This document shows positions 153 to 64,000 of a stretch of DNA of 64,000 bases, piece by piece (the stretch's first letter is position 1; each line of letters begins with the position of its first letter). Below the pieces are notes generated by a model. The model was not told where the DNA came from, ran no database searches, and saw only the letters and a program-made list of their open reading frames with translations. The translations under genes were made by a program, and so were the position numbers. The stretch comes from Eledone cirrhosa (taxonomy: Eukaryota), in assembly GCA_964016885.1 (NCBI GenBank), contig CAXHJY010000664.1, positions 1-64,000 on the forward strand. The letters are read 5' to 3'.

Positions 153-1040
153 AATATTGTATGTTTTTTGTTCCAATACTGCAAAAGTTTGCAATGATTT
201 ACTAAATAATAATTACCCTATAGACATTTGAATTAAGCAACCAGGTGAAAACAATAGAAAGACATTCTTCAAAGGTAAACACAGAACCCCGACTGCATTA
301 CATTAATATTGAAGGTGTTTATTCCAGTACTGTAAAAGCGTGCACTGATTTACCAAATAATAATTATACTATAGACTTTTGAATTAACCGACCAGGTGAA
401 ACCACATAAGAAAGACATTCTTGAAAGGTGTAACACAGTACCCGACTACATTACATTAATATTTAAGGTCTTTATTCAAGTAATGCAAAAGTATGCAATG
501 ATTTACTAAATAATTGTTTCTACTTTTGTCACAAGGCCAGCAATTATCCCAGTGTATTACTGGTACTTTATTTTATCGACCCCGTAAGGATGAAAGGTAA
601 AGGTACTATAGATAAGTAATTATGTTTTGAAACAGGAGCGAGTTTGAAATTAGAAATAGAAGCTTTGAATGGAAGGAGATGGGCGATATATTGGTTTAAT
701 GGTAGCACAGTGGTCTGGATAACCAAAGATGTGGTTCGACTCACATGTACGTCAATTCTGAACTTTTTCCATTTCTTAGAGGCTTCTAACCCTACTGTCA
801 GGCTAAAATGTCTTCAGTAAATAAATACGGCGAAAGCTTCTATTTCTAATTTATACTATAGATATTTGAATTAACCAACCAGGTTAAACCTCAATAGAAA
901 TACATTCTTGAAAGGTAATCACAGTACTTCGATTGCATTACATTAATATTGCATATTTTTAATCTAATACTGCAAATGTTGACAAAGATCCCTCCACTGA
1001 TAAAGATAATATAAACATTTGACTTAACAGATCAGTTTTA
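152..1040. repeat. Degenerate ~150-bp tandem repeat interrupted by other elements
   Basis: Unit tatagacatttgaattaa...ccaggtgaaa...gaaagacattcttgaaagg...cacagtac..gactgcattacattaatatt recurs near 219, 370 and 856; partial units near 480 and 960. Confidence 0.75.
510..603 (-). mobile_element. SINE 3' fragment
   Basis: ttgtttctacttttgtcacaaggccagcaatt...actggtactttattttatcgaccccgtaaggatgaaagg is the reverse complement of the SINE tail. Confidence 0.85.
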
Positions 1041-1229
1041 ACCGTTTAACATTTAAACCAGCCGTATCCGGCCAAAATTCTCTCACCTCTTTCTGTTCAA
1101 ACCGACCGTAATCGGCTGCTTATACGTATGTTAAGGCATTGTTCTCAAAATATAGTAGATCTGTGTCAATGAGCTGCTCAACATTTCTAAACTCAAGACC
1201 AATTTCATCAGTTGTTAAGTCAAGAGTAC

Positions 1230-1430
1230 TCAAAATATACGGTCACATAAAAAGATCAACTCGTGGTGTGAGTAGGTTATGCCTAGAAGAAAAGTTGACT
1301 GGTAAGAGAAGCAGAGGCCGGCAGCCAAATCGATGGCTTGATAATGTCAACTTATGGATTGGACTTGATCTTTGAACTCTGCTGCTGGTGATCGAACTTT
1401 GTGGAGAAAAATATCTCATGTTGATGCGCA
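1230..1430 (+). mobile_element. RTE-clade LINE 3' remnant
   Basis: Translation YGHIKR...LEEKLTGKRSRGRQPNRWLDNV fits the RTE C-terminal GHxxR...GxRxRGRxxxRWxD motif. Confidence 0.7.
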
Positions 1431-1853
1431 GTTTCAACTGGCAGATTTTAGCGTCAAAGAAGAAGAGATAATTATGTGAGATAAAATGTTTACTGTGAAA
1501 ATACAATAGTAAATATAGAGTAATGTAAATGTTAAAGTTTAAGATAGTTTCTTCTAAACCATAACAGGACTTTAAGAGTTAATCCCTTATCGTAAATCTT
1601 TACAGGACAGGTATCAACTTGTAACAGTTTATACAGGACATCAATTGTTTATCGATCTCACTATATATGGAGGAGGACTTTGTAGAATATTGTTATTGGG
1701 TCTGATTTACCCCCTTCCTCTTCCTATTCTATCAAAAGAAAGACATATAACAGATACATACATACATAGACACGCATACACACATGGGTGTGTGGGTATG
1801 CATATATCTATATGTGTCTATCTTTATACGCACACACACACTCCTATATATAC

Positions 1854-1884
<31 letters not shown>

Positions 1885-2465
1885 TCTACGTAGAAATCCA
1901 CACACACAGAATACACTCCCTATATATACATGCACACACACACACACACATACACTCTCTCTCTCTGTATATATATATCCTTCCAAAACCTATTAATTAA
2001 TCAAGCAGCTGCCTTTGTCATTTTACATGTCTAAACACACCACAATTACACACACCTACCTCCAACGACAACACACAGAGACAGAGATAGTAAATTGATA
2101 GCAATACCAATAGCATTTTACATTTACATCTTAATTAATATTACAGTGATTCTCCAATGAAAAGGGAGATTACGATTGTAAGCAGTTGTTAGTGTGACTA
2201 TCAACTTTATCCTGCATTTAAATGTAATTGCTTCTAATTATGTCGATGTTTCGATCGCTGGAAGATAATCACGCTAATAAGATGTGTAACAGAACGCAGG
2301 AAATACATTGGAAGATTGGGCTGGGCTGGGTCGGTCTTTAATCAGTATACTGGTACATCCATGGGCCCTTAAGTATTAATTGAATTGTAGGGGCGCTGTC
2401 TTGGGGATTTAAACATGCTGGAGCTTATTCCTTTCTAGGTTTTAGAGAACACAGACGAATTTTCC

Positions 2466-2491
2466 AGAGAGAGAAAGAGAGCGAGCTGAAT

Positions 2492-2569
<78 letters not shown>

Positions 2570-39880: not shown

Positions 39881-40032
39881 AATTGTTTCTACTTTTGGCA
39901 CAAGGCCAGCAATTACCCAGTTCATTACTGGTACTTTATTTTATCGACCCCGTAAGGATGAAAGGCAAAGTCAACCTCGGCGGGATTTGAACTCAGATCG
40001 TAAAAGGACGTAACTATGCTGGAAAGCATGGC
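39881..40032 (-). mobile_element. SINE, 5'-truncated
   Basis: Reverse complement of SINE body and tail. Confidence 0.9.
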
Positions 40033-40126: not shown

Positions 40127-40624
40127 CAAGGACGGACTATTTGTTAAGCCTTCATTACGTTTATTGATTGGTGACGCGCGTTTCACTATTGATCAGCTCA
40201 AGGTTCGATCTGTATCGATCTGGCCCAAATCTGGAATCGTTGGACCTCTGCTGTAGTAATGACAGAATGAATATATAAGGCATATCATGTCTAACGTTTC
40301 ACGTTCATATGTTGGTCAGTTTATGTTGTTTTGATTAGTGATTTAGCTATGAGGAATGTTTTGGTATGTTTGGGGGTGAGGATAGTGGCGAACCAAATTC
40401 TTGAATGAATATATTTCTTGGTTTACAATTGTTTCAGAAGCCAGACCACAATTCAGTCCGTAAAAATGAAATCTATCAATTATAGATTCGATAAGAATGG
40501 ATTATATTAAAACTGAACTATGATTTGACCTCATCTTCAGAACCAAAAAAGAAAATAAATATAATATTCAAATATATATATACAATATATTAATAAATGG
40601 AAACTATATTTATAAAACCATAAT

Positions 40625-40690
40625 TATTTTATTATATATATTTCAAGGGCAACCAAGGCAAATTATGGTGCGGTTTCATCAGATAAAATA
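40625..40690 (-). ncRNA. Minimal type-I hammerhead ribozyme (left arm of palindrome A)
   Basis: tattttat-CTGATGA-aaccgcacca...tggttgccctt-GAAA-T-ATAT-A-TA-ataaaata. Confidence 0.7.
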
Positions 40691-40740
40691 CAGATAAATA
40701 TTTATTTATAAAACAAATATTTATTTATAAAACAAATCTG

Positions 40741-40806
40741 TATTTTATCTGATGAAAGTGCACCATAATTTGCCTTGGTTGCCCTTGAAATATATATAAT
40801 AAAATA
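40741..40806 (+). ncRNA. Minimal type-I hammerhead ribozyme (right arm of palindrome A)
   Basis: Stem I tattttat/ataaaata; CTGATGA; stem II aag/ctt, gca/tgc, cca/tgg; GAAA; U-AUAU-A; AUA cleavage triplet. Confidence 0.8.
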
Positions 40807-40931
40807 ATTATGGTTTTATAAATATAGTTTCCATATATATTGAATATTTACTCCACTATACTGTTGAGTGCTTTATATCAGTTATAAACATTTTTAAGCT
40901 TGTTGAATCCCAACAAATTAAATATAACCTC

Positions 40932-40986
<55 letters not shown>

Positions 40987-41119: not shown

Positions 41120-42030
41120 TATATATGTGTCTGTGTGTGTGTGGTGAGGTGTGTGTGTGTGTGTAGTGAGGTGTGTGTGTGTGTGGTGAGGTGTGTGTGT
41201 GTGTTTGTGGTGTGGTTGTGTGTGTATGGTGAGGTGTGTGTGTGTGTATAGTGAGGTGTGTGTGTGTGTGTAGTGAGGTGTGTGTGTGGAGGTGTGTGTG
41301 TGTGGTGAGGTATGTGTGTGTGGTGAGGTGTGTACAAGCCTGTATGTGTGTGTTTGTGTTGATCTCACAATCTACAAATACCCCCAATTCCAACACCATG
41401 ACCAACGCCATCTCAACCAATACAACCACCACCTCCAATACTACAACAAATACAACATGTACCAGCTTCACCTCAACCACCACTACAACCAATACGATCA
41501 CCGTCTCCAACACTACAACCAATACAACAAGCACCAACGCCACCACCACTACAACCAATACGATCACCGTCTCCAACACTACAACCAATACAACAAGCAC
41601 CAACACCACCGCCACTACAACCAATACGACCACCACCTCCAACACTTCAACCAATACAACTATCACTTCCAAAACTACAACCAATGCAACCAATACAACT
41701 ACCACCACCAACACTACAACCAATACAACAAGCACTACTTTCACTACAACCAATACAACTACCACCACCAATACTACAGCCAACACTACAACCAATACAA
41801 CAAGCACTACCTTCACTACAACCAATACAACTACCACCAGCAACACTACAACCAATACAACAAGCACTACCTAAACTACAACCAATACAACTACCACCAC
41901 CAATACTACAGCCAACACTACAACCAATACAACAAGCACTACCTTCACTACAACCAATACAACTACCACCACCATCACTACAACCAACACAACAAACACT
42001 GCCACCAATACCACCACCACCACCACCACT
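41120..42030. repeat. gtgaggtgtg repeats followed by an acaaccaatacaac-type minisatellite
   Basis: Direct inspection. Confidence 0.85.
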
Positions 42031-42032
42031 AT

Positions 42033-42178
42033 ATTACTGGTACTTTATTTTATCGAACCTGTAAGGATGAAAAGCAAAGCTAACATCGGTGATATTTTAA
42101 CTAAGAACGTAAATAGACATAACTACATGACGCAAAGTATATTGTTGGACGCTCTACCTATTACTGATTATCTACCGC
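42033..42178 (-). mobile_element. Degenerate SINE
   Basis: ttactggtactttattttatcgaacctgtaaggatgaaaagcaaagc...ggacgctctacc. Confidence 0.75.
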
Positions 42179-62874: not shown

Positions 62875-64000
62875 TTATACTTCTCTTAGGTCAGTGTTGT
62901 TTGTTTGGGTGTTGTTGTTGTTCCACTCATTCTTTCTGTTTAGCTTTGGTCTTCTAATTTCTATGTTGTCTATGTTACCGTCATGTTGTTGTCTAGCATG
63001 TTCGTATAGTACTGACCCGTTTTTTCGTCCTTTTAGTTCCCCCCAGTGATGATCTATCCTTTCACCTATGCTACGAGCTGTCTCACCTATGTATGTTGTT
63101 GTCATGTTTCTGCAAGTACCCTCTGTACATCTTATGCTATAGACTACGTTTCTAGTTTTACAGTTTATCCGGGGGTTCACCTTACATATGATACACTTCC
63201 TACAGTGGGTTTTCTTAAAAGGGTAGGTTTTGCTGATCAGGGATTTTATGGTGGTTCCTGGCTTTTCTACCACCTTTATTTTTAAGTGGGTCTTTCTCAG
63301 GGCCTTTCTACACTGGTTAGCTAATTTCCCTCCAAGGGTGGCGTCCACAAACATGACACTCTGATATCTCTGGTTGTCGTACCATGATGTGGCCTTCCCT
63401 ATCTTATGTCTAGCCCTATCTAAGCTATTCCATGATTTGCTCCTGTATAGTGGGCAGATTCCTTTCATTTCATGTCCAGTTCTATGAGGGTCTTATACTT
63501 TTCCATGGCTCCTTCGTATACTCTGACTCTGTCTCTTTGGTTGTAGCCAGAGAACTGCATGCGGTTGATGAAGTGTTGGATGTGTCCTTCCATTTCTGTT
63601 GGGTCGCACATGCTGGACACATTCTTCATCACTCGTACCAAATCTGCGATCAGAATATTAAACTTAGCACTACTGGACATTGCTGAGTTTTTGAGTATCA
63701 GGTATTTGGAGGCCATGGGTTTAGCATAGTGTGAGTGGAGAATTTGGGCTCTCTCGTCTATAGTGTTAATCCAGAGTTCTGTGTCTAATACAGGTAGTCT
63801 ATTGTTAGGGTGTTTGGAAGGGAAGTCTATAGTTACAGTTATACTCTGGTGTATGGAATTAGCTATCTGCTGGATGCTTTCCATCGTGCTACGTTCTAAA
63901 TCGAACTTGTTAGTGCTCTCTAGTGGGGGTGTTCTTATAACTATATTGATATCATCTACATAACGAGAGTACATGATGAGGTCTATGGAGCTTTCATTAA
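62875..64000 (-). mobile_element. Penelope-like retroelement (RT, Cys-rich linker, GIY-YIG endonuclease), disabled; runs off the window edge
   Basis: SRYVDD RT motif, LPVLD, CxxCxxC...C linker, VVYSIRC...TYIGETARSIGERIDHH; frameshift from an atgaa duplication near 63464-63473. Confidence 0.92.

What the first reader, a model, noticed from the sequence alone, without database searches (positions are those of the whole stretch)
40563..40880. Palindrome A: back-to-back hammerhead ribozymes, one on each strand
Seen: 99-bp arms with 2 mismatches, each holding a complete minimal type-I HHR (8-bp stem I, CUGAUGA, paired stem II, GAAA, U-AUAU-A, AUA). The ribozymes point outward, the inner arm ends lie 5 nt from stem I, and the spacer is a 19-bp duplication. 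Established: Penelope-like elements carry such HHRs and often insert with inverted partial copies. Inference: an ORF-less, symmetric ribozyme cassette. Transcription from either side gives an RNA with one HHR preceded by its own antisense, so it could switch between a ~100-bp dsRNA hairpin (editing/siRNA substrate, ribozyme masked) and self-cleavage. It may instead be a by-product of priming from both target ends.
Basis: partly seen in the sequence, partly recalled or inferred. Interest (0 to 1): 0.8.

Follow-up and report, generated by a model that had tools for sequence, protein, structure and literature searches.

The report
Head-to-head stub of Penelope-like retrotransposon
This mirror-image stretch with two hammerhead ribozyme motifs is a short, cut-off insertion of a common Penelope-like jumping gene with an already described shape; its two unequal arms were likely copied from the two cut ends of the target DNA, and the long hairpin is predicted to keep both ribozymes from folding.

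Summary
The palindrome and both minimal type-I hammerhead motifs are real, but this is not a symmetric cassette. The insertion spans 40583-40934 inside a TA repeat. One arm ends 50 nt past the cleavage site, the other 142 nt past it (92-nt tail). It is the end (pseudo-LTR) of a Hydra-type Penelope-like element; a near-identical copy flanks an open RT + GIY-YIG frame elsewhere in the genome. Across 84 loci, 40 of 41 classifiable head-to-head pairs have one short and one long end, and only 24 of those 40 keep both ribozymes. Inner boundaries cluster 133 nt upstream of the cleavage site, not at the ribozyme. The two arms of an insertion share alleles. Folding gives no support for a switch: the hairpin wins by about 95 kcal/mol. 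The layout is published (PMC8557442, PMC3846280), and this scan noted it before on other DNA of this genome. Residual value: the copies favour double priming on one RNA over the published self-priming idea. No RNA run was available, and no read spans this locus.

The parts
40583..40934 (.). Whole insertion: head-to-head 5'-truncated Hydra-type Penelope-like element ends (short-end arm + long-end arm)
   Evidence: ends match family positions +50 and +142 from the cleavage site
40583..40702 (-). Left arm, element positions -82 to +50 (short end, no tail); likely 13-nt internal deletion near the centre
40625..40690 (-). Left minimal type-I hammerhead motif; predicted cut between 40633 and 40632; third pair of stem II broken (C-C)
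40697..40702 (.). Self-complementary hexamer shared by both arms at the head-to-head junction (6-bp overlap)
40697..40734 (+). Tandem 19-bp duplication of the element sequence just upstream of stem I
40697..40934 (+). Right arm, element positions -82 to +142 (long end); 6-nt deletion near 40835
40741..40806 (+). Right minimal type-I hammerhead motif with palindromic stem-loop III; predicted cut after 40798
40843..40934 (+). 92-nt tail present on one arm only; in a tandem copy it runs on into the 5' UTR and start codon
40572..40582 (.). Left remnant of the (TA)n target
40935..40984 (.). Right (AT)25 target repeat

Best explanation
This is a heavily 5'-truncated insertion of a Hydra-type Penelope-like retrotransposon into a TA repeat, and its head-to-head arms were likely made in one event by priming reverse transcription from both cut target ends at two fixed sites of the same uncleaved RNA. 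Shown: the parent element, two fixed outer ends (+50 and +142 from the ribozyme cut site), short+long pairing, TA targets, and alleles shared between the two arms of one insertion. Inferred: the endonuclease cuts both strands; one 3' end primes at +50 and the other at +142; each cDNA runs toward the RNA 5' end (likely near -133); the long-end cDNA usually stops earlier, as it would if it had to displace the first; the two cDNA 3' ends are then joined through a few complementary bases (here the self-complementary hexamer at -82). The two ribozymes are passengers of the pseudo-LTR. Read-through RNA would form a 99-bp hairpin that masks both, so this copy is predicted to be catalytically silent. 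Confidence is about 0.95 for the identity and about 0.6 for the double-priming steps; the figure given is for the whole statement.
For: Parent: the right arm aligns over about 226 columns with 7 substitutions and one 6-nt gap to the pseudo-LTR of L061, which is followed by an open frame of about 741 codons with RT and GIY-YIG parts (Pfam RVT_1 E 4.8e-4 on L065; GIY-YIG E 3.4e-3 on L053; both below Pfam cut-offs). Pairing: 47 head-to-head pairs in 84 loci = 40 short+long, 1 long+long, 0 short+short, 6 with a broken arm; p 1.9e-11 against 0.5. Six of 8 ten-kb loci show a short-end and a long-end arm in opposite orientation, three of them with a kb-long short-end arm and a tail-only long-end arm. 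Targets: 55 of 60 short ends and 71 of 76 long ends abut (TA)4. One source per insertion: mean 2.4 differences within pairs against 4.6 permuted, 0 of 3000 permutations, 18 pairs; polymorphic site +10 concordant in 19 of 21 pairs, p 1.6e-4. Against single fold-back: the short-end arm reaches more than 15 nt further inward in 21 of 40 pairs, the long-end arm in 2, and in 7 of 40 the arms do not overlap at all. Uncleaved template: 1 of 111 arms starts within -3..+4 and 34 of 111 at -134..-127. Biochemical precedent: a Poseidon element cuts and extends both strands, starts RT at two internal sites that bracket the tail, is predicted to be a dimer and does not need ribozyme cleavage (PMC11167929). 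Raw RAD reads of other samples show strand-switch joints in this family, including +101 joined to -133.
Against: No cDNA intermediate or RNA was observed; the mechanism is read from finished insertions. Shared alleles also fit later gene conversion between arms or fold-back copying, and the two pairs with most private shared alleles (L012, L054) are divergent subfamily copies. Two of 21 pairs disagree at +10. Deletions at the centre of an older, longer palindrome could create the short-arm-longer and non-overlap classes. Short-end arms under about 30 nt escape BLAST, so 'long arm further in' is undercounted; 13 of 29 tail-selected copies have no adjacent inverted partner. Samples are the best-scoring 30 loci per search, not random. 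The rank correlation of inner ends is weak (rho 0.42, p 0.065; within 15 nt in 10 of 20 against 4.4 permuted, p 0.0024). One read joint (L024 1533-1612, 5-nt ambiguity) is compatible with an arm starting at the cut site. The 92-nt tail is longer than the 30-40 bp described.
Confidence: 0.62

Rival explanations
1. Same element, but the inverted arm comes from self-priming (fold-back) of one cDNA or of an antisense template, with later central deletions reshaping the junctions. Self-priming on an antisense template is the reading in PMC3846280.
For: Inner ends lie within 15 nt of each other in 17 of 40 pairs, including this one. Arms share alleles. Small palindromes or overlaps at junctions are common: 21 of 40 BLAST junctions overlap. 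The focal centre has suffered a deletion and a duplication.
Against: Fold-back of the long-end cDNA needs the short-end arm nested inside it, violated in 21 of 40 pairs; fold-back of the short-end cDNA cannot supply the tail; 7 of 40 pairs have non-overlapping arms. It does not explain why one arm always stops at +50. Kb-long short-end arms paired with tail-only arms (L061, L063, L064) would need very large one-sided deletions.
Confidence: 0.22
2. Both target ends are primed, but on two separate RNA molecules from the same donor locus or subfamily.
For: Overlapping arms need no strand displacement in this version. Two of 21 pairs disagree at +10, and site -39 often differs between arms.
Against: Private alleles shared by both arms in young copies (L022, L026, L030). 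Long-end arms are the shorter ones 21 to 2, which two free RNAs would not predict. Site -39 is a CpG, and the first search selected for its T allele.
Confidence: 0.1
3. One reading: a functional, symmetric, ORF-less ribozyme cassette that switches between a dsRNA hairpin and self-cleavage, spreading or kept as a unit.
For: Both cores are intact here. The right arm alone folds into the ribozyme stems (stem I 0.60-0.72). Stem II and loop III change sequence but keep pairing across sister families, so the motif is selected in the parent elements. A read-through hairpin could feed editing or small-RNA pathways.
Against: Arms are unequal and junctions are rebuilt per copy; 16 of 40 pairs lack one complete ribozyme. 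No alternative fold within 90 kcal/mol, and the sense arm zips onto its antisense as it emerges. The left motif has a broken stem II pair. The copy lacks the likely RNA start at -133. Such minimal motifs are reported to cleave slowly even as dimers (PMC6765202 passages).
Confidence: 0.03
4. Assembly fold-back artefact at this locus.
For: Unplaced contig; no laid contig or read spans the locus.
Against: The arms differ by 2 substitutions and by indels and end at the two family-specific positions; the flanks are not mirrored. The same layout recurs on many large contigs, and strand-switch joints occur in raw reads.
Confidence: 0.03

Closest known systems
Hydra clade of C-terminal EN+ Penelope-like elements (Craig et al. 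2021, PMC8557442; includes Hydra-1_Obim from Octopus bimaculoides and Penelope-13_HM)
   Same: RT then GIY-YIG; RWR (RWK-like), DKT, CxCX5C, CxxC and CxH motifs; no CCHH; (TA)n targets; hammerhead near the 3' end. The paper's supplement lists Penelope-13_HM with a 5'-truncated inverted copy at its 5' end and the same hammerhead on both strands.
   Different: Unit about 3.9 kb against 'generally <3 kb', owing to a 3' UTR of about 1.4 kb. Its hammerhead differs from the one listed for Hydra-1_oBim, so it is another family. No tree with named Hydra members was built.
Typical EN+ Penelope-like insertion: inverted 5'-truncated pLTR plus tail at one end (PMC8557442 Fig. 2 legend; Adineta Pen2a, PMC3846280)
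   Same: Head-to-head copy at the 5' end, tail on one arm only, short overlap or palindrome at the junction, pLTR of about 180 bp (-133 to +50).
   Different: Tail 92 nt against 30-40. Here both arms are cut down to the pLTR, leaving no ORF. The short+long rule and arm asymmetry are counted over 40 pairs.
Poseidon element of Anolis (PAc) in vitro (Frangieh et al. 2024, PMC11167929)
   Same: Two internal RT start sites bracketing the tail, both strands cut and extended, AT-rich target, uncleaved RNA as template.
   Different: Other clade; its ORF starts inside the ribozyme, whereas here the start codon lies about 50 nt past the tail. In the parts read (1-2 of 4), the paper does not derive the inverted arm from the two sites.
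L1 twin priming (recalled, not read here)
   Same: Both target 3' ends prime on one RNA, giving a 5' inversion joined by microhomology; matches the 7 non-overlapping pairs.
   Different: Here both priming sites are fixed, and most pairs duplicate the sequence rather than only inverting it.
Animal non-LTR retrozymes (bioRxiv 10.64898/2026.07.22.740005; PMC7761336)
   Same: ORF-less short units with type-I hammerheads derived from Penelope-like pLTRs.
   Different: Retrozymes are direct tandem repeats; this is one inverted pair with unequal ends and no head-to-tail unit.

Membership tests
EN+ Penelope-like element (parent) | Single ORF with RT and C-terminal GIY-YIG, flanked by the same pLTR | tested here: met
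   L061 pLTR-ORF-pLTR, open frame about 741 aa; Pfam hits weak, below cut-off; the L061 copy reads YRDY where L065 reads YRDD
EN+ Penelope-like element (parent) | Minimal type-I hammerhead with palindromic loop III in the pLTR | tested here: met
   core intact in 96 of 109 full-length motif copies; catalysis not tested
EN+ Penelope-like element (insertion) | Inverted 5'-truncated copy at the 5' end, tail at one end only | tested here: met
   40 of 41 classifiable pairs; tail 92 nt rather than 30-40
Hydra clade | RWK-type motif and DKT in place of DKG | tested here: met
   RWR and DKT in L061, DKT in L066, DKA in L065
Hydra clade | CxCX5C linker; no CCHH; CxxC and CxH late in the endonuclease | tested here: met
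   CxCX5C in 3 of 3 copies, one Cys only between the GIY and YIG equivalents, CSLC and CKH present (definition)
Hydra clade | (TA)n insertion preference | tested here: met
   55 of 60 and 71 of 76 ends
Hydra clade | Generally under 3 kb | tested here: not met
   about 3.9 kb between the two hammerheads in L061; the paper gives this as a tendency, not a rule
Hydra clade | Phylogenetic grouping with named Hydra RTs | not tested
   no named reference proteins were fetched; filed as Hydra-type by motifs only
Neptune/Nematis clades | CX2-5CxxC linker and CCHH motif | tested here: not met
Non-LTR retrozyme | Direct tandem repeats, each with a hammerhead | tested here: not met
   single head-to-head pair
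Active hammerhead ribozyme | Self-cleavage of the RNA | not testable with these tools
   folding predicts masking in the whole insertion; no RNA run listed

The most novel reading that the evidence does not exclude
The copies of this family record the unsolved Penelope-like integration step: a dimeric RT-endonuclease primes both target ends on one uncleaved RNA at +50 and +142, the second cDNA displaces the first, and most insertions are 'strong-stop' copies that run off a capped RNA 5' end at -133 in the 5' pLTR. This would explain the inverted arm, the one-sided tail and the abundance of solo pLTR palindromes in one model, and an open-frame copy (L061) makes it testable in vitro.
Probability: 0.45. 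Interest if true: 0.5.

Novelty: new member of a known kind. Interest (0 to 1): 0.22.

Why it matters
As a locus it is ordinary: one of more than a thousand candidate copies (1172) of a retroelement end with a published shape. It matters a little because the way Penelope-like elements make tandem and inverted insertions is stated as unresolved (PMC8557442), and this young family gives countable rules (short+long pairing, shorter long-end arm, shared alleles, sharp 5' stop) that separate double priming from self-priming. If read-through transcribed, such copies would be a genome-wide source of 100-200 bp dsRNA, which could matter for editing or small-RNA silencing; nothing here tests that.

Tried and rejected
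Rfam at gathering score: no hit in the window. No RNA holder listed for the stretch; this is no evidence on expression. Laying two contig sets of one sample, a third contig set and one RAD run on the locus: nothing spans it, reads come from sister copies. First guess Neptune clade: rejected on motifs. Cap-derived extra G at the -133 stop: 4 of 17 show it (L020, L023, L089, L094), 2 more are ambiguous; suggestive only. A stalling hairpin as the cause of the -133 stop: the predicted hairpin begins at about -134, so RT would meet its 3' side first; this favours an RNA 5' end but does not show one. Palindrome B family as a replicate: ends were too heterogeneous against my reference to classify, and no parent ORF was tied to it. 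The left-arm-alone fold used a 118-nt piece and the right arm a 219-nt piece, so those two numbers are not directly comparable. PMC5785218 is not held. Look-up of earlier notes near the finding returned nothing.

Full report
Observation. An ungapped inverted pair lies at 40597-40695 and 40736-40834, 99 bp with 2 mismatches. Each arm has a minimal type-I hammerhead motif: 8-bp stem I, CUGAUGA, stem II, GAAA, a palindromic stem-loop III and an AUA cut triplet. The 301-nt region folds at -159.5 kcal/mol, z -24. Rfam finds nothing at gathering score. The same scan found only one other such pair in the window, at 51784 (-) and 51859 (+). Positions below are counted from the predicted cut (+1 = 40799 on the right arm).

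True anatomy. Comparison with other copies puts the insertion at 40583-40934, between a short TA run and (AT)25. The left arm ends at +50; the right arm runs on for a 92-nt tail to +142. Both align inward to -82, where they overlap on a self-complementary hexamer (40697-40702). The 19-bp duplication is element sequence just upstream of stem I, and the left arm appears to have lost 13 nt next to the junction (the deletion is my inference). The right arm also lacks 6 nt near 40835. The left motif has a C-C in the third pair of stem II.

Parent element. The own genome is 3.0 Gb in 1796 contigs; the arm gives 1172 candidates, of which 40 were scored. Walking upstream led to 3.7-3.9 kb copies. L061 reads pLTR + tail, a frame open for about 741 codons, a 3' UTR, and a pLTR ending at the short end. 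The focal right arm matches its pLTR with 7 substitutions and one gap. Pfam gives weak RVT_1 (E 4.8e-4, 1 of 4 pieces) and GIY-YIG (E 3.4e-3) hits. The protein has RWR, DKT, CxCX5C, CxxC and CxH and lacks CCHH, the diagnostic set of the Hydra clade in PMC8557442 section 11. That paper's supplement lists an octopus Hydra family with a different hammerhead, and Penelope-13_HM with an inverted 5'-truncated copy and the same hammerhead on both strands. So back-to-back hammerheads on opposite strands are already in a published table.

Family statistics. I used 90 small loci from three searches (arm, upstream UTR, tail; 30 best each) and dropped 6 that duplicated another locus, leaving 84. They hold 47 adjacent head-to-head pairs: 40 short+long, 1 long+long, 0 short+short and 6 with one broken arm (p 1.9e-11 for 40 of 41 against 0.5). 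In the 40, the short-end arm reaches more than 15 nt further inward in 21, the long-end arm in 2, and 17 are within 15 nt; 7 have no overlap; only 24 keep both complete ribozymes. Of 111 arms from the arm- and tail-selected loci, 34 start at -134..-127, 1 at -3..+4 and 3 at -66..-58. In the tail-selected set, 16 of 29 new loci have an adjacent inverted partner (counted by eye). Six of 8 ten-kb loci show both end types in opposite orientation; for L062 and L067 no partner was seen. Ends abut TA repeats in 55 of 60 and 71 of 76 cases. Arms of one insertion are closer to each other than to other insertions (2.4 against 4.6 differences, 18 pairs, 0 of 3000 permutations) and agree at a balanced polymorphism in 19 of 21 pairs. 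Limits: best-hit sampling, BLAST boundaries good to a few bases, very short arms missed, and two discordant pairs.

Mechanism. PMC11167929 (parts 1-2 of 4 read) shows for an Anolis element that both target strands are cut and extended, that RT starts at two internal sites bracketing the tail, that the protein is predicted to be a dimer, and that ribozyme cleavage is not needed. Applied here (inference): one target end primes at +50, the other at +142, on one uncleaved RNA; both cDNAs run toward the RNA 5' end, likely near -133; the long-end cDNA tends to stop earlier; the two 3' ends join by microhomology. This accounts for the head-to-head orientation, the short+long rule, the one-sided tail, shared alleles and non-overlapping pairs. 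Fold-back of a single cDNA, close to the self-priming reading in PMC3846280 (passages), fits the 17 near-symmetric pairs but needs later deletions for at least 21 others. In L061 the copied stretch crosses two intact hammerheads, so that template was uncut at both. Raw RAD reads from three other samples of one study show strand-switch joints on a natural single arm, among them +101 to -133 and +74 to -92; one joint is compatible with a start at the cut site (coordinates; 15 of 25 joints shown).

The switch idea. The right arm alone forms stem I with probability 0.60-0.72, but in the whole insertion the probability is 0.000 on both strands and forcing it costs 97 and 94 kcal/mol; prefix folds show the sense arm pairing with its antisense as it emerges. 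No second state is within reach. The motif looks selected in the parent families, since stem II and loop III change sequence while keeping their pairing, and such motifs are reported to work slowly and as dimers in tandem copies (PMC6765202 and PMC7761336 passages). A dsRNA role after read-through transcription remains possible and untested: no RNA run was listed.

What is in print. The layout is described in PMC8557442 (passages, section 11, supplement part 2 of 59) and PMC3846280 (passages). Retrozymes as pLTR derivatives: bioRxiv 10.64898/2026.07.22.740005 (part 1 of 5). An octopus repeat annotation lists Penelope-like families and does not mention hammerheads or palindromes in its main text (PMC13282606 passages). 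Searches for Penelope + twin priming + inverted (2 papers, listing only, neither on this mechanism by title) and for Penelope-like + head-to-head + pLTR + mechanism showed no paper proposing double priming for these elements; the library lacks most subscription papers, and L1 twin priming is recalled from memory. Earlier notes of this scan reached the same class, and some the same two-end idea, on other DNA of this genome; they are not independent support.

Verdict. Real, ordinary in kind: a truncated Hydra-type Penelope-like insertion, not a ribozyme switch. Interest 0.22, owed to the family's use for testing an unresolved integration step.

Noticed in passing
window 51540-51960: Second head-to-head hammerhead pair of another family (95 candidates): same stem I and core, different stem II, GC palindrome in loop III; long left arm and short right arm. 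Parent ORF not found.
   Followed up: partly
family position -133 (e.g. L089, L080, L094, L019, L023): Sharp 5' boundary shared by single and paired copies, with an extra G in 4 of 17; may be the capped RNA start in the pLTR.
   Followed up: partly
L061:4840-4985: The tail is predicted to pair with the 5' UTR just before the start codon; a candidate protein-binding structure that places the two RT start sites. A similar short motif occurs in the tails of other families in the window (about 51610 and 52095).
   Followed up: partly
window 62878-63998 (-): RT thumb and GIY-YIG fragments of another Penelope-like element with a CxxC-type linker.
   Followed up: no
L068:2242-3918: A 559-aa open piece of a second Hydra-type family next to a family A insertion; L066 also holds a different Penelope-like ORF at 315-2524 (-). 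These elements cluster.
   Followed up: no
L024:1440-1552 (reads): An abundant sister subfamily in RAD reads shares stem I and the 3' part, has a different stem II and appears to end near +38.
   Followed up: no
window 39917-40016, 42026-42125, 43060-43159: Three copies of a SINE-like dispersed repeat; an 80-bp tandem of related sequence at 17486-17710.
   Followed up: no
tail-selected loci L075, L081, L086, L095: Four of 29 long-end arms start at +16 to +19 in an AT-rich stretch; possibly a microhomology hot spot.
   Followed up: no
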